Below, in pieces: positions 39,819 through 54,355 of a stretch of 64,000 bases of DNA (its first letter is position 1; each line of letters opens with the position of its first letter). The notes beneath the pieces were generated by a model. The model had not been told where the DNA came from. It saw only the letters and a list, made by a program, of their open reading frames with translations, and did not search any database. A program made the translations under genes and the position numbers. This DNA is from an uncultured archaeon (lineage in GTDB: Archaea; Asgardarchaeota; Heimdallarchaeia; Heimdallarchaeales; Kariarchaeaceae), in assembly GCA_964645535.1 (NCBI GenBank), contig CAZYCQ010000009.1, positions 17,799 to 81,798 on the forward strand. Reading direction: 5' to 3'.

Positions 39819-40748
39819 TTATTTGGCATAAAGTGTTGATTTTTCAAAAGAGAAGTCTTGGGGTACGATGACCTGGAGGACATCCTTTTCGAGCTCCAAT
39901 GTGACTGGCGTGATTCCTTTTAATTCCCCTTCAGATTCCACCAAGGTTGGTATTTCTGCATCAATTGTGACCTTGTTGCCCCATCCCATCCAAATATAAT
40001 CTAATCCTATGTGTTTGGCTTTTGGAACCAAAGTCAAGGCCTTCAGGGCTTGCAGTTTGCTTGCTCCATGGAGGACTGCTATATTGATCCGATCTGAATT
40101 GAACCTAACCTCTGGAAGTATACGCATTCCTGAACCAAAGGTTTGGCCTAGCCCTGCCGCCAGAATCCTTGACTTGAATCGGTATTCTTTTTCATCAATG
40201 GTTACAATCAGTTCCCTTGGTTTGTACTTCATGAATTCCGATATGGCAAGAAGATAATATTTCATTAGGCCTGGAAGCCATTTCAACTTGGTTTGGCTGG
40301 CTTTGACAACTTTTGCCCCCCATCCCACGTCCGTCACGTTAATTGAATAATAGGACTTGCTTTCAAGATCCACTCTGACGGCATTAATTGAAACTGTTTT
40401 TCCTTCGATGAAAATATCAATGGCTTTATCGACATTCGTAGGGATGTTCAGGGCACTGGCAAAGTCATTTCCACTTCCTGAGGGGATTAATCCCATTCGC
40501 ATCCCGTATTTGATGGCAAAATTCGCAATGTGGTGCATTGTTCCATCTCCTCCCACTGCCAACACTTCTGTGACTCCGTTCCCTTTTTCAGCAGCAATGG
40601 CTTCTTCAGCTTCATGGATTGATCTTGTTTCCCGAAAGACAAATGGTATCCTTTCACTTTCCAGTTTGGTAATTGCCTTCATTGCATTTTTTTTGCTTCT
40701 TCCTGCTCTTGCATTTGGATTATAGAGAACCAGAACTTTACGATCCAC
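39819..40748 (-). CDS. Diacylglycerol/lipid kinase family (YegS/BmrU-like)
   Basis: NPNARAG, GGDGT, PSGSGNDF, GSGM, EGE. Confidence 0.92.
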   Translation of the reverse strand: MDRKVLVLYNPNARAGRSKKNAMKAITKLESERIPFVFRETRSIHEAEEAIAAEKGNGVTEVLAVGGDGTMHHIANFAIKYGMRMGLIPSGSGNDFASALNIPTNVDKAIDIFIEGKTVSINAVRVDLESKSYYSINVTDVGWGAKVVKASQTKLKWLPGLMKYYLLAISEFMKYKPRELIVTIDEKEYRFKSRILAAGLGQTFGSGMRILPEVRFNSDRINIAVLHGASKLQALKALTLVPKAKHIGLDYIWMGWGNKVTIDAEIPTLVESEGELKGITPVTLELEKDVLQVIVPQDFSFEKSTLYAK

Positions 40749-44747: not shown

Positions 44748-45734
44748 ATGAAAGGAAAATTCATCTTTTCAGCACTGTTCCTTGTAGCAATCATGGCAGT
44801 CATGAGCTTCAGTGGACCAGTTTCTGCTGATGAATTGGTATCAGGCAAGACATTCGTTGTTTACAACGGCGGAGGTGTCTTTGCTCCTGAAATCAACGGA
44901 TTTTACACAAACTATACGGAGGCAGGCAATACCATCATCAACGGTACCGACATGACCCTTGAAAATCTTAAGGGCAATCTGACCGCTGATGTGGATGCCC
45001 TGTTCCTTCCTGCAAACGACCTTTCTGGTGCTGATTTGAGCTTCATCAAGGAATGGTTCGACCTTGGCGGCAAGATGCTGTGGGTAGGTGGTGACAGTGA
45101 CTTTGGTGGTTTCTTTATTGCTGACAACCTGAACCCTGTCCTTGAAGAGGTGGGCTCTGTCCTCAGACTGGATTCCGGTGCAGTGGACGACCCTGTCAGC
45201 AATGACGGTGCTTCCTACCGTGTCGTCGCCAACCAATTGGGTGACGGCCCCATTGCAAGCGCCATTAAGGAACATGTTGACGGCGATTTCAAGATGCCGT
45301 TCCACGGTCCCACCTCTGTCTATTACATGAAGGATGGTGCTCCTGCCGATCTGAGGAATGCTACCCTTGACAATGTCGAAGTTGTTGTCATGGCTTCTCC
45401 TGATTCAAAAGGAATTGATCAGGATCTGAGTGCTGGCACTGGTGACTTCTATGCAAGCATCAACGCAACTGGCGATCTTCCCTTGCTTGCAGTCGAGACA
45501 ATCGACAACAACGTGGTAGTTGTCTCTGGTGAGAGCGTCTTCAAAGACTACAAGAACATGTACGGTAACAGCTTGGAGAAATCTGGCGAGTTCCATTACG
45601 GTTCAATCGTTGTTGACACTATCATCAGCTATGTTTTCGAAAACATTGCCACTCAGAGCAAAGCTCCCATAAACTTCTTCGTTCCTGTTATTGGTTTGAT
45701 TGCAGTTGCTGCCATCATCCGCAGAAGGAAATAA
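44748..45734 (+). CDS. Cell-surface protein with a GldG/IFT52(GIFT)/DUF4350-like domain and C-terminal anchor
   Basis: GGAG RBS, signal peptide, WFDLGGKMLWVGGDSD, LNPVLE..G..LRLD...VDDP, tail APINFFVPVIGLIAVAAIIRRRK; start 44748 rather than 44427. Confidence 0.7.
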   Translation: MKGKFIFSALFLVAIMAVMSFSGPVSADELVSGKTFVVYNGGGVFAPEINGFYTNYTEAGNTIINGTDMTLENLKGNLTADVDALFLPANDLSGADLSFIKEWFDLGGKMLWVGGDSDFGGFFIADNLNPVLEEVGSVLRLDSGAVDDPVSNDGASYRVVANQLGDGPIASAIKEHVDGDFKMPFHGPTSVYYMKDGAPADLRNATLDNVEVVVMASPDSKGIDQDLSAGTGDFYASINATGDLPLLAVETIDNNVVVVSGESVFKDYKNMYGNSLEKSGEFHYGSIVVDTIISYVFENIATQSKAPINFFVPVIGLIAVAAIIRRRK

Positions 45735-45818: not shown

Positions 45819-48770
45819 GTGGACACGGATTTTTCTTTTGAGAACCCACATGCATTGTCAATTGATGAGGTGGTTGCACAAGCCAAAGTAAATCTTCAGA
45901 CGGGACTTTCCAATGAAGATGTCAACGAACGCCTTCAATTGGTTGGGAAAAATATTATTGAGGTAAAAAAGCCGGGAATCTGGACAGTTTATCTTGCCCC
46001 ATTGTTTGATACTTTGATCACTATCTATTTGGTAATGGCTGCGATCATGCTCTCATTATCCTTTGTTGTACCTGAGGTCAGAGGCCAAGTAACTTTTTGG
46101 CTTGTGGTCATTGCGCTGAACATGCTTCTTGCAATATTTCAGCAATATCGTGCACAAAAGAAAATTGAATCACTTAAAAATCTAAGTCCTCCCACCGCAA
46201 AAGTAATTCGGTCTGGTATCAAAACTGAAATTCTGGCAGAAAATCTTGTCGTGGGGGACATTATCGAGCTTTCTCTTGGTGACAAAGTTCCAGCAGACGC
46301 AAGGCTGATATCGACTAGTAACTTTACCGTCAATGAGGCCTCATTGACTGGAGAGAGCACCCCTGTAAGGAAATTTTCCGATGATGACTTACGACAGGGA
46401 CTCCCGAAAGATACCCCTATCGACGGAAGAAAGAATATGGTTTATCTTGGAACTTTTGTTCAGACAGGTTCTGCGACTGCTGTCGTTGTGGCAACAGGCA
46501 ATCGTACAGAATTGGGTTCAATTGCTTCAACCATGAATGAAATGCATACTGTAGAAATTCCCCTAAGATCCAAAATCAACCGTTTGGGTAAAGGTCTAGG
46601 AACACTTATGGTGTTCTTTCTTGTCATCGCAATTTTTGTTAGACTTTATCTTCGACTTTCCTCTAATCGTCCTCTTACCTTTATCGTTTTTGCAAAAGAT
46701 CTAACCGATAGCATTGTCAATGCAATGGCAGTCATGCCAATTAATATTCCTCTTCTAACGACGGTGGTCTTGATTACTGGCGTTTTACAGATGGCGACCA
46801 TAAATGTCATAGTCAAGAAATTATCGGTTGTGGAAACTCTTGGAAGAATATCTGTACTCTGTTCCGATAAAACAGGGACCATAACTACCTCCAAAATGTC
46901 TGTGGTACGTCTTTGGGATGGTAAGAACTATTATGGAGTTATCCAGGACGGTACGGGACCATCGATTTTTCCCATTGAGAATACTGACGATCTGTTTCAG
47001 ACTAATGTCGATGAAGAAATGCAAACAATACTCAACGAAATCGACGAAAATTCACAGCTCTTTCTCATGATTGCAGTTGCATCTAGAAACAACGATGCAA
47101 CTTTGGTTGAACAAAAACTTAAGGAAAAGGCATTTTTGGGATATGACGTGATCGGAAATCCAACGGATGGTGCTCTTCTTACTCTTTTACTCAAATCAGG
47201 TATTGATCCGCAAATAGTTTCCTCAAGATTCAATAGAATCAAATCTTATCCATTTGATTCCTCTCTCAAACGAATGTCAGGTCTTTTTGAGGATACCAGG
47301 ACTGGAAAACGATATGTCTTCACGAAAGGGGCAACAGATTTTATTCTCCCCTTATGCAATCGATATTCTGTCGATCTTACTCCCTTTGCCCTGACTGACG
47401 ACCATGTTGCCACGATTTTAGATAAAACAAATGCCTTTGCCGATCACGGTTTTCGTGTTATCTCTTTTGCATATCGCGAAGTTGATCAATCTTTTCCTGA
47501 TGAAGGAATGGATGAAGCTCAAGAACGTAAGGAGGCAGAATCCGATCTAATCTTTTTGGGCTTCTCCTGCATTTTGGATCCGCCACGTCAAGGTGTGGAA
47601 GAAGCCGTCGCCAAGCTTGATGAGGCAGGGATTTTTCCTGTCATGATTACAGGTGATTCTCCGGCAACCGCTGGAACCATTGCTAAACAAGTCGGAATTT
47701 TAGATCCTGATGAAAAAGTCGTAGAAGGAAAAGATATCCCTGATCTCTCTGATGAGGATTTCTTTAAGGTCTCTGTCTTTGCCCGGGTTTCTCCCCAAGA
47801 TAAGAAAGTGATTGTGGAAAGATACCAGGAAAAGGGACGTGTTGTCGCCATGACTGGTGATGGTGTAAACGATGCATTGGCAATTACGCTTGCAGATGCT
47901 GGTGTAGCCATGGGAATCACTGGAACTGAAGTTACCAAAGAAGCTGCTGATATCATTCTTGCTGACGATTCCTATGTCAGCCTTGTTAGTGGAGTGGAAG
48001 AAGGCAGAAATCTTTTTGAAAAGATCAGGATGATGATTTTCTTTTATATTGCCGTGAATTTCGCTGAAGCAATCATGTATTTCTCGACACAATTCCTGAT
48101 GGACGGATCTGATTTCCTTCAGTTGCTCAACAATTTCCAACGAACCTATATTTTCTCAATTGCTCATGCCTTTCCTCCATTGGCAATTATCTTTGGAAAC
48201 AAGGACAAAGACATCATGCGTCTCAAGCCAAGGGAACATAGTGAACTTCTTCCCAAGAATTTGGTCATGGCTCTTTTCCTCTTTGGGATTACACTTGCCA
48301 CATCGTTGCTCTTTATCTATTTCAGTCACGATGATCTGTTTCTGGGGATTTTCGGGCTGAATTCTTTTAATAAGATGGGATTTATCCCCGAACTTTCATC
48401 ATTGGGGAACTACAAGCAACCGAGAAATTTGAACCAAGCCAAAGCACGTACAATGTTACTGACAGTCATTTATATTGCAGAGACAACTTTGGTGCTTAGT
48501 ATCCGAAGGATAAACAAAAACATCATAGAAGGTTCAAAGGATGTTAACCTCTTTATCCTTCTGACAACTTTCCTTCCTCTTGCTATCCATTTTATGCTCA
48601 TCTACATATTTCCAATTCAGAATTTTTTGGTTTCCTTTTTTGGAATCAACATTGATTTGGTTCTTCTTGGACCAACGGATGTGCTTTTGGCTCTGTTTTT
48701 CGGACTCCTTCCCATTTTCGTTCTCGAAGGATACAAATGGCTCGTTCGAAAGAAAGGGATGCAATTTTAG
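45819..48770 (+). CDS. P-type ATPase, P2 (SERCA/SPCA)-like scaffold with non-canonical transport site
   Basis: LTGES, CSDKTGT, KGA, DPPR, MITGD, TGDGVND; TM4 is PINIP instead of PEGLP. Confidence 0.95.
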   Translation: MDTDFSFENPHALSIDEVVAQAKVNLQTGLSNEDVNERLQLVGKNIIEVKKPGIWTVYLAPLFDTLITIYLVMAAIMLSLSFVVPEVRGQVTFWLVVIALNMLLAIFQQYRAQKKIESLKNLSPPTAKVIRSGIKTEILAENLVVGDIIELSLGDKVPADARLISTSNFTVNEASLTGESTPVRKFSDDDLRQGLPKDTPIDGRKNMVYLGTFVQTGSATAVVVATGNRTELGSIASTMNEMHTVEIPLRSKINRLGKGLGTLMVFFLVIAIFVRLYLRLSSNRPLTFIVFAKDLTDSIVNAMAVMPINIPLLTTVVLITGVLQMATINVIVKKLSVVETLGRISVLCSDKTGTITTSKMSVVRLWDGKNYYGVIQDGTGPSIFPIENTDDLFQTNVDEEMQTILNEIDENSQLFLMIAVASRNNDATLVEQKLKEKAFLGYDVIGNPTDGALLTLLLKSGIDPQIVSSRFNRIKSYPFDSSLKRMSGLFEDTRTGKRYVFTKGATDFILPLCNRYSVDLTPFALTDDHVATILDKTNAFADHGFRVISFAYREVDQSFPDEGMDEAQERKEAESDLIFLGFSCILDPPRQGVEEAVAKLDEAGIFPVMITGDSPATAGTIAKQVGILDPDEKVVEGKDIPDLSDEDFFKVSVFARVSPQDKKVIVERYQEKGRVVAMTGDGVNDALAITLADAGVAMGITGTEVTKEAADIILADDSYVSLVSGVEEGRNLFEKIRMMIFFYIAVNFAEAIMYFSTQFLMDGSDFLQLLNNFQRTYIFSIAHAFPPLAIIFGNKDKDIMRLKPREHSELLPKNLVMALFLFGITLATSLLFIYFSHDDLFLGIFGLNSFNKMGFIPELSSLGNYKQPRNLNQAKARTMLLTVIYIAETTLVLSIRRINKNIIEGSKDVNLFILLTTFLPLAIHFMLIYIFPIQNFLVSFFGINIDLVLLGPTDVLLALFFGLLPIFVLEGYKWLVRKKGMQF

Positions 48771-48878: not shown

Positions 48879-50792
48879 TTGAAGGATTATCAGACACTTG
48901 AGGAAATTAAGCGGGAAGTCCAAAAAATCATGCCATCTTCTGCAAAAGTAAGTGAAATTGAATTTGAGGGATCCGAAGTTGCAGTTTACTGTAAATCAAT
49001 TGATGTTGTCGTTGATGACCCATCGCTCATTTCCACACTTGCAAGGTCACTCCGTCGACGTGTAGTTATTCGTTCCGATCCCTCCATACGTCTTGATCCT
49101 TCAAGTGCAGAAGGTATTGTAAAAGATGAAATCAATGATTTGGCCAATATTTCATATATCGATTTTGACCATGCAATGGGTGAAGTAATTGTTGAATTGG
49201 ATCGCCCCGAACTTTTCCAAAACCGAAACAATGAAATTGCCAATAGCATTCTCCTGAAAACAGGATGGAGACCGCACTTTTATCGTACTCCTCCCATTGA
49301 ATCTCAAATGATCAAATCCATTCGGCACATTCTTTTTTCAGAAACAGAGAGCAGGAAAAAAGCCCTCAAAAAAATTGGCCATATTATCAACCGTCCTACC
49401 TTTTTCAGAGAAAAGATATTGCGTATTACTGCGCTTGGTGGCTATCTCGAAGTCGGAAGATCTTCCACCCTTCTCCAAACCGGAGATGCAAACATTATCG
49501 TCGATTGTGGTGTCAATGTAGGATATGATGCTCCTGTTCAGTATCTTCCTCGTTTTGATCTTCCGGAATTTGATATTAACACACTTGACGCGGTTGTCAT
49601 CACCCATGCTCATCTTGACCATTCAGGTTTTGTTCCCTACTTATTCAAATACGGATATCGGGGACCTGTATATTGTACACCCCCTACGCTTTATCTTATG
49701 ACACTTCTCCAACTTGACTACCTTGATGTTGCAGAAGCTGAAGGAAAGCTTCCACCTTATTCCAAGTCGGATATTCGGGAAGCAGTTCTCCATACAATCC
49801 CCCTGAACTATGGCGAGGTGACCGACATTGCGGCAGGTGTCAAGTTGACCTTCCATAACGCAGGTCATATTGTGGGCTCAGCAATCGCACATATGCATAT
49901 CGGAAATGGATTGCATAACATCGCATTCGCCCATGATTTTCGATTTGCCAAATCAAGAACGCTTGATCGTGCAGCCCATAAATTTCTTAGACTTGAAACT
50001 TTAGTGATGGAATCAACCTATGGCAATCCTAAAGATGTTGTACCTAGCAGGGAGGAATCCGAAAAACAATTGAAAGAGATCATTATCAAAACAATAAACA
50101 GGGGAGGAAAGGTGTTAATCCCTGTACTTGCAGTTGGACGGGCACAAGAGCTAATGGTCATCGTTGAAGAACTCATCAGCTCCCAACAGATCCCTGAAGT
50201 TCCTGTCTTTGTTGACGGGATGATCCGAGAGGCAAATGCCATCACAACCGCTTTTCCCGAGTTTCTTTCAAAGGAATTGCAGGATCGTATTCTCAACAAC
50301 CAAGACAACCCATTTTTGGCACCCTTTTTCCACAATATTTCTGACAGTACTACTCGGGAAGAGATTGTATTGGGGGATCCATGTATCATATTTGCTACCA
50401 GTGGCATGCTTGCCGGCGGCCCTTCCCTTCAATACTTCACTGCCCTTGCTGAAGACCCTAAAAATTCCTTGGTGATTGTTTCCTATCAAGGTAAAGGTAC
50501 TTTAGGTCGAAAAGTGGAAGATGGTGCAAAAGAAATAAAGATGAAGGATGAAAAGGGTAAAACCTATTTGCTCAAGGTCAATATGGAGGTTCATAAGATA
50601 TCTGGTTTTACTGGCCATAGTGATCGAAATGAGTTGATGGAATATGTCAGGAGGTTGGTTCCACGTCCAAAACGTTTCGTTATGGTTCATGGAGAAGAAA
50701 CAAAGTGCAAAAATTTAGCGAAGAGCGTTGGCAAATCGGTTAAACGCGAGGCTCTTGCCCCTCCGATTGGAACCACAATTTGCCTTACCTAA
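48879..50792 (+). CDS. fttA: aCPSF1/FttA: KH-domain beta-CASP ribonuclease and transcription termination factor
   Basis: N-terminal KH domains (EFEG, GWRP..RTPP), EVGRS, THAHLDH, AGH, MESTYG, GRAQE, GHSD, HGE. Confidence 0.95.
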   Translation: MKDYQTLEEIKREVQKIMPSSAKVSEIEFEGSEVAVYCKSIDVVVDDPSLISTLARSLRRRVVIRSDPSIRLDPSSAEGIVKDEINDLANISYIDFDHAMGEVIVELDRPELFQNRNNEIANSILLKTGWRPHFYRTPPIESQMIKSIRHILFSETESRKKALKKIGHIINRPTFFREKILRITALGGYLEVGRSSTLLQTGDANIIVDCGVNVGYDAPVQYLPRFDLPEFDINTLDAVVITHAHLDHSGFVPYLFKYGYRGPVYCTPPTLYLMTLLQLDYLDVAEAEGKLPPYSKSDIREAVLHTIPLNYGEVTDIAAGVKLTFHNAGHIVGSAIAHMHIGNGLHNIAFAHDFRFAKSRTLDRAAHKFLRLETLVMESTYGNPKDVVPSREESEKQLKEIIIKTINRGGKVLIPVLAVGRAQELMVIVEELISSQQIPEVPVFVDGMIREANAITTAFPEFLSKELQDRILNNQDNPFLAPFFHNISDSTTREEIVLGDPCIIFATSGMLAGGPSLQYFTALAEDPKNSLVIVSYQGKGTLGRKVEDGAKEIKMKDEKGKTYLLKVNMEVHKISGFTGHSDRNELMEYVRRLVPRPKRFVMVHGEETKCKNLAKSVGKSVKREALAPPIGTTICLT

Positions 50793-51322: not shown

Positions 51323-52017
51323 AATGGTTCTACAAATCCTATGAATTTGTTTGACGCCCATCTTGCTCCATGCCCGCTGACAAGCCTTGCCTCATAGATG
51401 TATTTGTGCCTAAAATGACCATACATATTCCACCATGTCTTATGTTCCAGAATCTGGTAAATCCAGTTGATGGCCTGCTGATTTCTTTCTTTGATGCCTC
51501 CCTTTGCTTTTCCCCAGAAACTAGATCGTGCCTGATGTTTGGACAAGGCTCTTGCAGCAACGATCAGTTCCGTCTCTTTATGTTTTTCTTCGGCTAACCT
51601 TACCAAAGTTTCAGATTTGGGAATTTTGGTTTGGCAATCTGTAATGCTACCTTGTGTAAATCTCTGTCCTGCCAAACTTCTTACTTCTATACATGTGAGT
51701 TTCGTTTTGCTCAATCGAGATTCCTTGGCAAATCTGGACAGTTCTTCAATAAATTTCTCAATGATTGCTGCTCTGTCTATCTGCACTTCAATGTCTGGGA
51801 AGGGAGGGGCAACATTAATCCGTCCTTCTTCAATAAATACAGTCAAGGTTTTAACCACTTGGGCTATTGTTTCGGAATTGACAAATTGATAGTTTGAAAG
51901 ATAAGCATGAACAAGATTGCGAATTCTCTCTTCATTGGAGAATATATTCGTCCACGAATCGTTCAATTTCCTCGCCAATATTGGATTCATTGAAGATGGC
52001 AGGTTCCACCATGTCAT
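51286..52017 (-). CDS. Conserved hypothetical protein resembling the domain that accompanies some ASCH proteins
   Basis: ARALSKH..RS.FWG...G, W.N.Y.H, YEAR...GHGARW...FIGFVEP; true start uncertain. Confidence 0.6.
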   Translation of the reverse strand: MTWWNLPSSMNPILARKLNDSWTNIFSNEERIRNLVHAYLSNYQFVNSETIAQVVKTLTVFIEEGRINVAPPFPDIEVQIDRAAIIEKFIEELSRFAKESRLSKTKLTCIEVRSLAGQRFTQGSITDCQTKIPKSETLVRLAEEKHKETELIVAARALSKHQARSSFWGKAKGGIKERNQQAINWIYQILEHKTWWNMYGHFRHKYIYEARLVSGHGARWASNKFIGFVEPFYGTNDQNLSVR

Positions 52018-52726
52018 TGAGCAATCGAAGATTGAACATCATATCCAATGGCAATGTTGCCGCATGGTGCAACCCCATTCCCTCTAATCTTTGATTCCAT
52101 CGTGTAATGAATTGGTTAAGCAACGAGCCTTCTGTCTCATTGGTGATTTTCGGCACTTGGTTCCAAATAAAGAGGTCTTTACGCGATTTCATGTCTTTCA
52201 ATATTCTAAATAGTTCCTGAATGAACAACTCTGTGGCTCCCACTCCGTAGTTAGTTGGACGAACCACTAAAATGCTGATGTCTGCCAAAATCAGATTATT
52301 GATTGAATTCATCGAAGTACCTGATTGGTTGTCTAAAATCAGGAAATCATAACCCATTTCATATATTTTCTTCTGTGCAATCAAGCTATTTTTCAGTGCT
52401 TTTTCCCACCATAGATCTGCATTCCCTTTGAGAAACTTCAATCCCATTTTCGGAGAGGATGTATAGATGATGTCTAAATTTTGAAACTTTGAGGGGTGTA
52501 TCAGGTTTCGTATATCAATCTCTTCGCCCTTTTCGAGATAGTCCGTCCAATATAGGATCTCTGGTTTTTGTGGAGGAAGGAAATGAATTAGGGAAGGGGC
52601 TTCGAGATCAACATCAATAATCAACGATTTATATCCTTTCTTACCCAAGGCAACTCCTATGCCCAAAGAAGTGATGGTCTTTCCTGAACCACCTCTGGTA
52701 GAATAAACTGTTATGGTCTTTTTCAA
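51932..52726 (-). CDS. MinD/ParA-family ATPase
   Basis: STRGGSGKT, IDVDLEAP, YDFLILD, WNQVP; GGAGG before the TTG start. Confidence 0.9.
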   Translation of the reverse strand: MKKTITVYSTRGGSGKTITSLGIGVALGKKGYKSLIIDVDLEAPSLIHFLPPQKPEILYWTDYLEKGEEIDIRNLIHPSKFQNLDIIYTSSPKMGLKFLKGNADLWWEKALKNSLIAQKKIYEMGYDFLILDNQSGTSMNSINNLILADISILVVRPTNYGVGATELFIQELFRILKDMKSRKDLFIWNQVPKITNETEGSLLNQFITRWNQRLEGMGLHHAATLPLDMMFNLRLLNDMVEPAIFNESNIGEEIERFVDEYILQ

Positions 52727-52737
52727 ATCATTTCCTC

Positions 52738-53445
52738 CTAAAGTGGAACGATCATTTCCTCCCCATTCCTGTTTTCAATTTTCACAAGCCCGTAACGAAC
52801 CAGATCCTTCAATATCTCATCATCAAAGTTGAAATCTTCCCGTTTCACTCCAGTGGGATTCAACATCAGGAATTTTCCAGCCTTTTTGATTTCTTCTGGA
52901 AGAGTTACTAGAAAAGAAAGGTTGAACAGGCTTTTCTCTCCTCTAGGAACTTTTGGAAGCATCTCGATGAGGAAATCCCGGATTTTCCTCAATTCTGTCT
53001 CTGCCATGACTTTGAAATGGTCATCAACTGATGTAGGTGTAATATGTGAATAATCAATCTTCCGTGCGAATTCCCTGATCCTATTTTCTAATTGAACCTC
53101 TAGTTGTCTCATTATGGCCTTCCATTCAATGGGGAAAAACACCACAATGATAATATGCAAGTTGACCAGCTCTGGATCTTCAGGCCGTATTTGAAAGAAA
53201 TAGAATTCCAAATTATTGTCTTGAATCTCGGAAACGGGCACAGGACCCTGCAATTGCAATTGCGGTGTTCGGTGATTTGCCATGCCACAGAGAATAACCA
53301 CTCGGGAGGCGAACATCATTTCCGATGCAGGGTCCATGAATTCAAGACCCGTATCCGTAATATATGTGGGACCCGAGGATTCAAGATTTACGACAACTGC
53401 CAATCCCACATCATTAAGGCTCATCATATTGTCTTCGATTTTCAA
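52738..53445 (-). CDS. Longin/uDENN-like domain + C-terminal winged helix protein
   Basis: Hydrophobic strand-SGP, GPVPV, FYFF, IIVVFF pattern; C-terminal L..L...GLVKI wing. Confidence 0.45.
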   Translation of the reverse strand: MKIEDNMMSLNDVGLAVVVNLESSGPTYITDTGLEFMDPASEMMFASRVVILCGMANHRTPQLQLQGPVPVSEIQDNNLEFYFFQIRPEDPELVNLHIIIVVFFPIEWKAIMRQLEVQLENRIREFARKIDYSHITPTSVDDHFKVMAETELRKIRDFLIEMLPKVPRGEKSLFNLSFLVTLPEEIKKAGKFLMLNPTGVKREDFNFDDEILKDLVRYGLVKIENRNGEEMIVPL

Positions 53446-53503
53446 TTAATAAAGCGTTTCTCAAGAAATCCAATTTTTACGTTACAAATTGCCTGACTTT
53501 ATG

Positions 53504-54355
53504 TCACTCAATAGACTGAAGGAAGTGTTGAACTTCTTCGAGATTTCCTGCAAAGCCCCCCCATAATTTTCTCATACTAACTGGAAGTATTTTTGTTCCT
53601 GTCAGATCAAGTTGTTTCAACTGAGTCAAATTTTTGAGATCGGCAGGGATTTCCCTGATGTCTGTATGACGTAATCTTAGTTCCTCAAGGACGGTCATTT
53701 TGGTCAAAACCTCTGGAAAAACAGCAATTGGGTTGCCGGTCAAGTCCAAGGTAGAGAGGTTCTTAAGGTTGATAAGGCTCTGCGGTAAACTTGTAATTTG
53801 ATTTTCTTCTAAATAGAGCTCTTCAAGTGAAACCATGTCTCCAATGGATTGGGGTAAGGATTTCAAGTTTGTTCGACTGCAATAAAGCCTTACCAGTTTC
53901 TTCAGATTGCCAATGGCATTGGGCAATGCTTCGATCGGATTTTTGTCCAAATGGAGTATTCTGAGATTTTCAAGGTAGCAAATTTGTATGGGTACTGTTT
54001 CAAGGCTATTTTCAGTAAAATCAATTTCTTCAAGGTTCTTTAATCCACTTGAATTTTCAATGAAGCTTGATAATTTATTGTGGCGAAGATTAAGGAATTC
54101 AAGAGATTTCAAATCTCCAAGCTCTTCAGGTAACGACGAAATTCTATTGTAGGAGAGATCAAGAGAAAGTAGATGACGAAATGAGCCAACAACAGGAGGA
54201 ATTTTTTCCAGAATGAGCGAGGAAAGGTCTAGATAAATTAACTTTCCTTCCCTGAACTCAACGCGGTTTCCTTGGATATAAAGCCGCAACTGACGTTCAA
54301 GCTCCGTCAATAATTGATAGTCATTCTTTTCTGTTACCTGTGGCTCATTTTCCAT
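53504..54355 (-). CDS. Leucine-rich repeat protein (23-aa repeats)
   Basis: About 9 LxxLxLxxNxLxxLPxxIGxL repeats. Confidence 0.95.
   Translation of the reverse strand: MENEPQVTEKNDYQLLTELERQLRLYIQGNRVEFREGKLIYLDLSSLILEKIPPVVGSFRHLLSLDLSYNRISSLPEELGDLKSLEFLNLRHNKLSSFIENSSGLKNLEEIDFTENSLETVPIQICYLENLRILHLDKNPIEALPNAIGNLKKLVRLYCSRTNLKSLPQSIGDMVSLEELYLEENQITSLPQSLINLKNLSTLDLTGNPIAVFPEVLTKMTVLEELRLRHTDIREIPADLKNLTQLKQLDLTGTKILPVSMRKLWGGFAGNLEEVQHFLQSIE

What the first reader, a model, noticed from the sequence alone, without database searches (positions are those of the whole stretch)
45819..48770. SERCA-scaffold P-type ATPase that has lost its Ca2+ site and carries P4-flippase-like membrane motifs
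Seen: the catalytic core is intact and P2-like (TGES, DKTGT, KGA, TGDGVND). TM4 reads MPINIP (46734-46751), so the cation-binding Glu of PEGLP is Ile. TM6 reads QRTYIFSIAHAFPPLAIIFG (from 48138). Aligned by eye to SERCA QLLWVNLVTDGLPATAL, this gives N796->F, T799->A, D800->H. TM5 N/E and TM8 E appear retained. Established: E309, N796, T799 and D800 form the SERCA Ca2+ sites; eukaryotic P4 phospholipid flippases have Ile at the E309 position (PISL) and a Pro-Pro in TM6, but use DGET rather than TGES; P4 ATPases are regarded as eukaryote-specific. Inference: this could be an undescribed non-Ca2+ pump, possibly a lipid flippase or a P2-to-P4 intermediate, in an Asgard archaeon.
Basis: partly seen in the sequence, partly recalled or inferred. 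Interest (0 to 1): 0.85.

Follow-up and report, generated by a model that had tools for sequence, protein, structure and literature searches.

The report
Asgard P-type pump, unknown cargo
This gene encodes an intact ATP-driven membrane pump from a large, apparently undescribed family of Asgard archaea that has dismantled the calcium site of its relatives and put a histidine there, so it probably moves some other small ion; it is not a lipid flippase by the defining marks, although it remains an unproven candidate for the closest prokaryotic relative of eukaryotic flippases.

Summary
Observation confirmed. 45819-48770 encodes an intact 983-aa P2-type ATPase under strong purifying selection. Ca2+ site II is erased (E309→I308, N796→F779, D800→H783); N747, E750 and E888 of site I are kept. 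This is not decay: 232 relatives share P-[IVFL]-N-x-P and the TM6 His. They form one clade (bootstrap 99-100) found in roughly 70% of 301 Asgard genomes, often as 2-3 paralogues beside a normal PEGL pump, and rarely in Thermoproteota.

It is not a P4 member: TGES instead of DGET, no TM5 Lys, no TM6 Asn, P4 profile 101 bits against a cut-off of 431. The Ile also occurs in P3 proton pumps, and TM6 Pro-Pro is in only 41% of the family.

Trees with real P4/P5A sequences often join the family to P4, but without stable support (SH 97 in the first tree, bootstrap 59 or 22 later, AU p=0.60). It shares no more derived residues with P4 than control groups do.

Best reading: a non-calcium small-cation pump (0.5; H+ likeliest). 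Lipid flippase 0.2.

The parts
45819..48770 (+). P-type ATPase, 983 aa, 10 TM, P2-like A/N/P domains; member of the Asgard P-x-N-x-P / TM6-His family
   Evidence: model pLDDT 86.6; fold matches
45996..46001 (+). TM1 start A60-P61 replaces the E-Q of P2A 'EQF' (A 93%, P 99%): acidic cytosolic entry residue lost
46119..46121 (+). N101 in TM2, 100% conserved (also 86% in P2A); the column of the Asn that partners the H+-carrying Asp in P3A pumps (equivalence from my knowledge)
   Evidence: for the P3A role
46140..46145 (+). Q108-Q109 at the cytosolic end of TM2; P2A has Q-E (Q 96% in family, E 90% in P2A)
46347..46358 (+). TGES phosphatase motif (P2 type; P4 has DGET)
46734..46751 (+). TM4 MPINIP: I308 = SERCA E309, N309 = SERCA G310 (new invariant polar residue), second Pro kept as in P2/P3
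46845..46847 (+). R343 before the phosphorylation site, 99% conserved (6% in P2A); R/K also seen in P4B, P5A and some P1B
46866..46880 (+). DKTGT phosphorylation site, D350 invariant
47325..47333 (+). KGA nucleotide-binding Lys
47853..47873 (+). TGDGVND hinge; the following Pro of P2A 'DAPA' is Leu (L687 95%)
48057..48068 (+). TM5 N747-x-x-E750 = SERCA N768/E771 (96%, 100%); V746, the column of the P4 Lys, is never Lys among the common residues
48138..48197 (+). TM6: F779 (= N796), A782 (= T799, variable), H783 (= D800, invariant), P786 invariant, P787 41%
48480..48482 (+). TM8 E888 = SERCA E908 (92%; Ile in one subgroup)

Best explanation
An active, single-subunit P-type pump of an old Asgard-archaeal offshoot of the P2 pumps that transports a small cation other than Ca2+, H+ being the likeliest single candidate. 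SHOWN (sequence, model): complete phosphorylation/dephosphorylation machinery; P2 fold; all three side-chain ligands of Ca2+ site II gone; acidic cytosolic entry residues lost; a buried polar cluster N747, E750, H783, E888, N309, N101 held nearly invariant across the phylum. INFERRED: H783 sits where D800 bridges sites I and II and pairs with E750 (and E888). It either takes up and releases a proton as the pump moves E1 to E2P, in the way the TM6 Asp does in P3A pumps that also have Ile/Val in TM4 and have lost N796, or it stays protonated as a built-in counter-ion while a cation binds at the unwound TM4 (backbone carbonyls plus N309). Split of the 0.5: H+ about 0.25, Na+/K+/NH4+ about 0.13, a transition metal on His/Glu/Glu/Asn about 0.12. 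No distance was measured on the model; direction and substrate are untested.
For: Catalytic motifs 98-100% conserved, E750 100%, H783 about 100%, E888 92%. Synonymous sites saturated (pS 0.80-0.93) while pN in the TM4-6 core is 0.02-0.05. Best profiles are P2A (456 bits; P4 101). Closest solved chains SPCA1, LMCA1, SERCA. TM5-10 model closest to PfATP4 Z 19.1 and SPCA1 Z 18.7, ATP8A1 Z 16.4. A TM5-10 profile against 1.84 billion proteins gives family members, then only canonical P2A. A basal subgroup keeps the P2A context SLAVAAIP before F-N-F-P. Site II is universally conserved in Ca2+-ATPases (PMC11468904), so Ca2+ is unlikely; the genome also has a normal PEGLP pump. P4 has no acidic residue at the E771 column. 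Precedents: TM6 Asp as H+ carrier in P3A; TM6 His as internal counter-ion in P1B-4 (PMC8880997).
Against: No characterised P-type pump is known to me that uses His at the D800 position as carrier. The family co-occurs with true P3A pumps (10 of 11 P3A-bearing genomes, comparing), so it is not their replacement. E888 is dispensable in 8%, and one small branch has Gln for His with PVSIP. Loss of the cytosolic entry acids and of E309 also fits a pump that phosphorylates without a cytosolic ion and takes its cargo from outside, as P4 does. Gene neighbours give no substrate clue.
Confidence: 0.5

Rival explanations
1. Lipid (or amphiphile) flippase, related by descent or by convergence to P4: I308 is the hydrophobic gate, N309 plays the part of the PISL Ser, and protonated H783 held by E750/E888 is the built-in cation (the job of K873), allowing phosphorylation without a cytosolic ion; an outer-leaflet lipid head group triggers dephosphorylation.
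For: Hydrophobic-then-polar pair at 308-309 as in PISL, with PVSIP and PITIP variants. Loss of E109 and the TM1 acid. Family plus P4 is the best tree (SH 97; with P5A, 59/84; log-likelihood 2.8 above the free tree, AU p 0.60). P4B works without CDC50. Family is Asgard-wide and multi-copy.
Against: No DGET, TM5 Lys, TM6 Asn or TM4 Asn. Keeps two buried Glu that P4 lacks. Only 2 derived columns shared with P4, against 2-7 for control groups; identity to P4 24.3/13.3% equals that of P2A 25.2/13.1%. The grouping is unresolved in cytosolic-only and membrane-only trees and falls to 22% bootstrap once basal members are added. P4 stem is 2.2-3.4 substitutions per site.
Confidence: 0.2
2. Importer of a small organic or anionic solute (amine, phosphate ester, anion) bound at TM4 with His+ as the fixed counter-charge, in the manner of P5B but unrelated to it.
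For: Site II side chains replaced by hydrophobics plus Asn and His; paralogues differ at TM4 304 and TM6 775 (S/T/A/N/D; R/H/S/W/Q), which could tune cargo.
Against: P5 profile 242 bits against a cut-off of 618; family+P5A in 0 of 1000 bootstrap trees; no transport or metabolic gene recurs beside it across classes.
Confidence: 0.13
3. Still a Ca2+ (or Mn2+) pump that uses a modified site I only.
For: N747, E750, E888 kept; databases annotate members as Ca2+-transporting ATPase; nearest relatives are P2A.
Against: Single-site Ca2+ pumps keep site II and lose site I, the reverse of this (PMC11468904); T799 and D800 also lost; a canonical PEGLP pump is in the same genome.
Confidence: 0.09
4. Non-transporting ATPase switch, or one partner of a two-paralogue heteromer (as plant PH1 with PH5).
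For: Co-oriented tandem pairs of two distinct subtypes, 68-183 bases apart, in 12 loci; PH1/PH5 precedent.
Against: The two paralogues of this genome are on different contigs; some genomes show one match only; the membrane core is the most constrained part.
Confidence: 0.08

Closest known systems
P2A Ca2+-ATPases (SPCA1 8iww/7yag, Listeria LMCA1 6zhf/6zhh, SERCA 1iwo)
   Same: Fold, 10 TM, TGES/DKTGT/KGA/TGDGVND, TM5 Asn and Glu, TM8 Glu; about 41% identity in cytosolic domains to prokaryotic P2A; best sequence and Foldseek hits.
   Different: Site II ligands E309, N796, D800 replaced by I, F, H; G310 is N; E109 is Q; 21% identity in the membrane part; all P2A profiles below cut-off (456 of 798; 393 of 703).
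P3A plasma-membrane H+-ATPases (AHA2, Pma1, archaeal MJ1226 type)
   Same: Ile/Val at the E309 position, second TM4 Pro, N796 lost, one titratable residue at the D800 position, TM2 Asn.
   Different: His instead of Asp; no TM5 Arg; keeps E771 and E908 columns; separate clade in every tree; profile 297 of 615 bits. Convergence at most.
P4 phospholipid flippases (ATP8A1/2, Drs2, Neo1)
   Same: Ile at the E309 position followed by a polar residue; Arg before the phosphorylation site as in P4B; loss of the 'DAPA' Pro; repeatedly adjacent in trees.
   Different: TGES not DGET; no TM5 Lys, TM6 Asn or TM4 Asn; buried Glu/His kept; second TM4 Pro kept; profile 101 of 431 bits; no excess shared residues.
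P1B-4 metal pumps (sCoaT)
   Same: Invariant TM6 His proposed as internal counter-ion (PMC8880997).
   Different: Different family and topology (SPC in TM4, HEGxT); a mechanistic precedent only.

Membership tests
P-type ATPase superfamily | DKTGT phosphorylation site with A, N, P domains and TM4 Pro | tested here: met
P2A Ca2+-ATPase | TM4 PEGL Glu | tested here: not met
   I308 93%; no Glu among the residues seen in the family
P2A Ca2+-ATPase | TM6 Asn and Asp of site II | tested here: not met
   F779 and H783
P2A Ca2+-ATPase | Site I ligands N768, E771, E908 (variable in the family itself) | tested here: met
   N747 96%, E750 100%, E888 92%; T799 lost
P2A Ca2+-ATPase | Nests inside P2A in trees | tested here: inconclusive
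   Own clade 99-100; sister group unresolved among P2A subsets and P4
P2A Ca2+-ATPase | Ca2+-stimulated phosphorylation and transport | not testable with these tools
   needs purified protein
P4 flippase | DGET in the A domain | tested here: not met
   TGES 98-100%; definition PMC4937031
P4 flippase | PISL in TM4 | tested here: inconclusive
   P-I met; S-L not (N-I-P); Ile/Val also in P3
P4 flippase | TM5 Lys (K873) | tested here: not met
   V746 column holds I/V/L/A/T
P4 flippase | TM6 Asn (N905) and TM4 Asn (N359) | tested here: not met
   F779 column F/V/S/Y; M303 column M/L
P4 flippase | Score above TIGR01652 cut-off | tested here: not met
   101 of 431 bits; 0 of 61 Asgard genomes over cut-off
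P4 flippase | CDC50 beta subunit (not needed by P4B) | tested here: inconclusive
   PF03381 not found in 101 genomes, but no positive control rang
P4 flippase | Sister group of, or nested with, P4 | tested here: inconclusive
   never nested; sister with SH 97, 59/84, 22%, AU p 0.60
P4 flippase | Lipid-stimulated dephosphorylation and lipid transport; TM1-2-4-6 groove | not testable with these tools
P3A H+-ATPase | TM6 Asp with TM5 Arg | tested here: not met
   His783; E750 is the only charge in TM5; definition
P3A H+-ATPase | Groups with P3A; score above TIGR01647 cut-off | tested here: not met
   297 of 615 bits; separate clades
P5 ATPase | PPxLP in TM4 and score above TIGR01657 cut-off | tested here: not met
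   PINIP; 242 of 618 bits; family+P5A 0 of 1000

The most novel reading that the evidence does not exclude
This Asgard family is the surviving prokaryotic sister of the eukaryote-specific P4 (or P4+P5) ATPases: the step at which a P2 pump lost E309 and began to handle a non-ionic cargo such as a lipid head group took place in archaea before eukaryogenesis.
Probability: 0.22. Interest if true: 0.92.

Novelty: new variant of a known kind. Interest (0 to 1): 0.62.

Why it matters
P-type families are defined by their membrane site, and this site (P-x-N-x-P, TM6 His, TM5/TM8 Glu) matches none described in the papers I could search. A 2023 review expects further prokaryotic families and lists the origin of P4 flippases as open (PMC10654040). 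The family is old and widespread in the lineage closest to eukaryotes, is annotated as a Ca2+ pump (an Asgard transporter survey, PMC7997004, counts such pumps as support for Ca2+ signalling; I did not check whether it counted these), and occurs in a cultured organism (Lokiarchaeum ossiferum, two copies). One purified enzyme would show either a new pump chemistry or, less likely, an archaeal root for lipid flippases.

Tried and rejected
Decay or sequence error: rejected. Pro-Pro as a P4 mark: rejected (41%). First tree with family+P4 at SH 97: not accepted as proof; support fell with partitioning, with P5A and with basal members, though a constrained search later found it 2.8 log-likelihood units better than the free tree, so the searches are not fully converged. 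Whole-protein fold search does not separate families (Z 26-33 for P2, P3, P4). P4, P5 and KdpB profiles: no Asgard genome over cut-off among 61, 41 and 81 searched. CDC50: none found, no positive control. Conserved partner gene: none across classes; recurrent neighbours are lineage-specific housekeeping genes. Promoter and terminator scan at chance level. Viral contigs gave no P4, P5 or P2 references. No RNA holder listed. Literature searches found no description of the family; subscription journals are mostly missing, so this is not proof. P2B, P2D, P5B, KdpB and P6 were not in the trees, and P4 rows came from unnamed metagenome contigs. No complex prediction was run.

Full report
1. The observation. 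The ORF at 45819-48770 (+) is a complete 983-residue P-type ATPase. HMMER aligns TM4 and TM6 to SPCA1 without gaps: PINIP over PEGLP, and F779, A782, H783 over the Asn, Thr and Asp columns. N747, E750 and E888 fall in the N768, E771 and E908 columns. The model (pLDDT 86.6) has a P2 fold with a break in TM4 at 306-308 and in TM6 at 783-784.

2. It is a family, not an oddity. The 120 best homologues (40-86% identical; names Heimdall-, Kari-, Hod-, Thor-, Odin-, Promethearchaeota) carry the same rewired site. Over 232 sequences: I308 93% (V, F, L otherwise), N309 98%, N747 96%, E750 100%, H783 about 100%, E888 92%, N101 100%, Q109 96% (Glu in P2A), R343 99%, P787 41%. Against two close orthologues synonymous sites are saturated while the TM4-6 core differs at 2-5% of non-synonymous sites.

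3. Distribution. Best E-values for the TM4-P segment in 301 Asgard genomes fall in two modes; by my hand count 214 lie in the family mode, a proxy that held in five genomes rechecked with a membrane-domain profile. Two closed genomes lack it (G001, G038). In Thermoproteota it was found in 2 of 151 genomes, one being the search centre. The one bacterial record carries a Loki-type pair and is probably a misbinned contig (inference). This genome has a second family member (C18, 52%) and a normal PEGLP pump (C49). Twelve loci, mostly Promethearchaeota, have co-oriented tandem pairs of two subtypes. No neighbour recurs across classes. A profile of TM5-10 against 1.84 billion proteins gave about a hundred family members, including a basal group that reads SLAVAAIP-F-N-F-P and keeps the His, then canonical P2A pumps; no P4 or P5 was among the hits whose motifs I read.

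4. Is it P4-like? By defining features, no. P4 is marked by DGET, PISL, K873, N905 and N359, and P3 pumps also have Ile or Val at the E309 position (PMC4937031). Aligned with real P4 sequences from metagenome contigs, the family has TGES, Val/Ile at the Lys column, Phe at the TM6 Asn column, Met at the TM4 Asn column, and keeps two Glu that P4 lacks. P4 profile score is 101 bits against 431; P2A profiles score 393-456, also under their cut-offs. The TM5-10 model is nearest PfATP4 (Z 19.1, rmsd 3.0, 214 aligned) and SPCA1 (18.7, 2.4, 201), with ATP8A1 at 16.4 (3.3, 208) and Neo1 at 16.1. The family shares two derived columns with P4 (I308, N254); control groups share two to seven, and its identity to P4 equals that of P2A.

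5. Is it kin to P4? Unresolved. All trees used LG+C20+F+G4 (PMSF). The family is always one clade (97-100). First tree: family+P4, SH-aLRT 97. Cytosolic-only and membrane-only: unresolved; without the TM4/5/6/8 cores, 90 for a group that also holds one P2A. With P5A: family+(P4,P5A) bootstrap 59, SH 84; P2C alternative 26%. With the basal members, which shorten the family's stem: P4+P5A go with P2C in 56% and with the family in 22%; without P5A, P4 goes with SERCA-like rows 49%, P2C 28%, family 22%. A search holding family+P4 together found a tree 2.8 log-likelihood units better than the free one, AU p 0.60. With a P4 stem of 2.2-3.4 changes per site, this is what either a weak true signal or long-branch attraction would give. 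P4 must descend from some prokaryotic pump and its origin is open; an Asgard-wide family that has lost E309 is a fair candidate. I put it at about one in five.

6. How it most likely works. Shown: an intact motor, an erased site II, lost cytosolic entry acids, and a conserved buried cluster of N747, E750, H783, E888, N309 and N101. From the literature: site II is the one all Ca2+ pumps keep (PMC11468904), so Ca2+ is unlikely; P3A pumps carry H+ on the residue at this TM6 position (equivalence to D800 from my knowledge and the alignments); P1B-4 pumps use a TM6 His as internal counter-ion (PMC8880997). Inferred: H783 paired with E750 either carries a proton or acts as a fixed charge while a small cation binds at unwound TM4. 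Buried carboxylates held invariant across a phylum are easier to explain with an ion than with a lipid. Odds: small non-Ca2+ cation 0.5 (H+ 0.25, monovalent 0.13, transition metal 0.12), lipid 0.2, organic or anionic solute 0.13, Ca2+/Mn2+ by site I 0.09, switch or heteromer partner 0.08.

7. Novelty. I found no description in the papers searched; databases call members Ca2+-transporting ATPases. Earlier agents of this scan reported the same family on other genomes and read it as a small-ion pump with no tie to flippases. I agree on substrate odds and membership, and reuse their phrase of a site rebuilt around Glu and His after testing it. I differ in that trees with real P4 and P5A sequences do not exclude a sister relationship. 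Verdict: a new variant (an uncharacterised subfamily) of a known kind, interest 0.62.

Noticed in passing
window 44751-45734 (+): Secreted-type 327-aa protein with a C-terminal membrane anchor, co-oriented 84 bases upstream of the pump; Atlas look-alikes are DUF4350/GIFT-like archaeal surface proteins. Beside the pump only in close relatives, so unlikely to be a family-wide subunit.
   Followed up: partly
window 48879-50792 (+): aCPSF1/FttA transcription-termination nuclease directly downstream; kept next to the pump in a 61%-identical orthologue.
   Followed up: partly
G000 C18:29153-32116 (+) and C49:22389-25127 (-): Second PINIP-family paralogue (52% identical) and a canonical PEGLP P2A pump in the same genome.
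   Followed up: yes
L320:594-3008, L326, L331:865-3675, L335: Another unusual Asgard P2-like group: TM4 PEE[LI]P, a Lys at the SERCA N768 column in TM5 and E-L-F-M-D in TM6; forms its own clade.
   Followed up: partly
L321, L323, L329: P2C-like pumps (PEGLQ; TM6 D-L-x-I-D) in closed Asgard genomes; they compete with the PINIP family as sister of P4 in bootstrap trees.
   Followed up: partly
P0265, P0276, P0324: Small branch with TM4 PVSIP (seen in P0265) and Gln in place of the TM6 His: the members closest to PISL; host not named.
   Followed up: no
L014, L034, L053, L064, L068, L069, L083, L105, L112, L123, L124, L126: Tandem co-oriented pairs of two family subtypes 68-183 bases apart, mostly Promethearchaeota.
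   Followed up: partly
L033 (NJBP01000013.1): Contig filed under Aerophobetes carries a Loki-type pump pair and neighbours shared with Loki loci; probably misbinned.
   Followed up: partly
L296-L306: True P3A H+-ATPases over the cut-off in 11 of 61 Asgard genomes, mostly in genomes that also have the PINIP family.
   Followed up: partly
L026:2102-2920; window 39819-40748: A YhhN-family gene lies beside the pump in five Heimdall/Hod loci, and a diacylglycerol-kinase-like gene lies 5 kb upstream here (Pfam from the syntenic locus): lipid enzymes nearby, but not conserved across classes.
   Followed up: no
window 51932-54355: ParA/MinD-like ATPase with an unknown partner gene, followed by a leucine-rich-repeat protein.
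   Followed up: no
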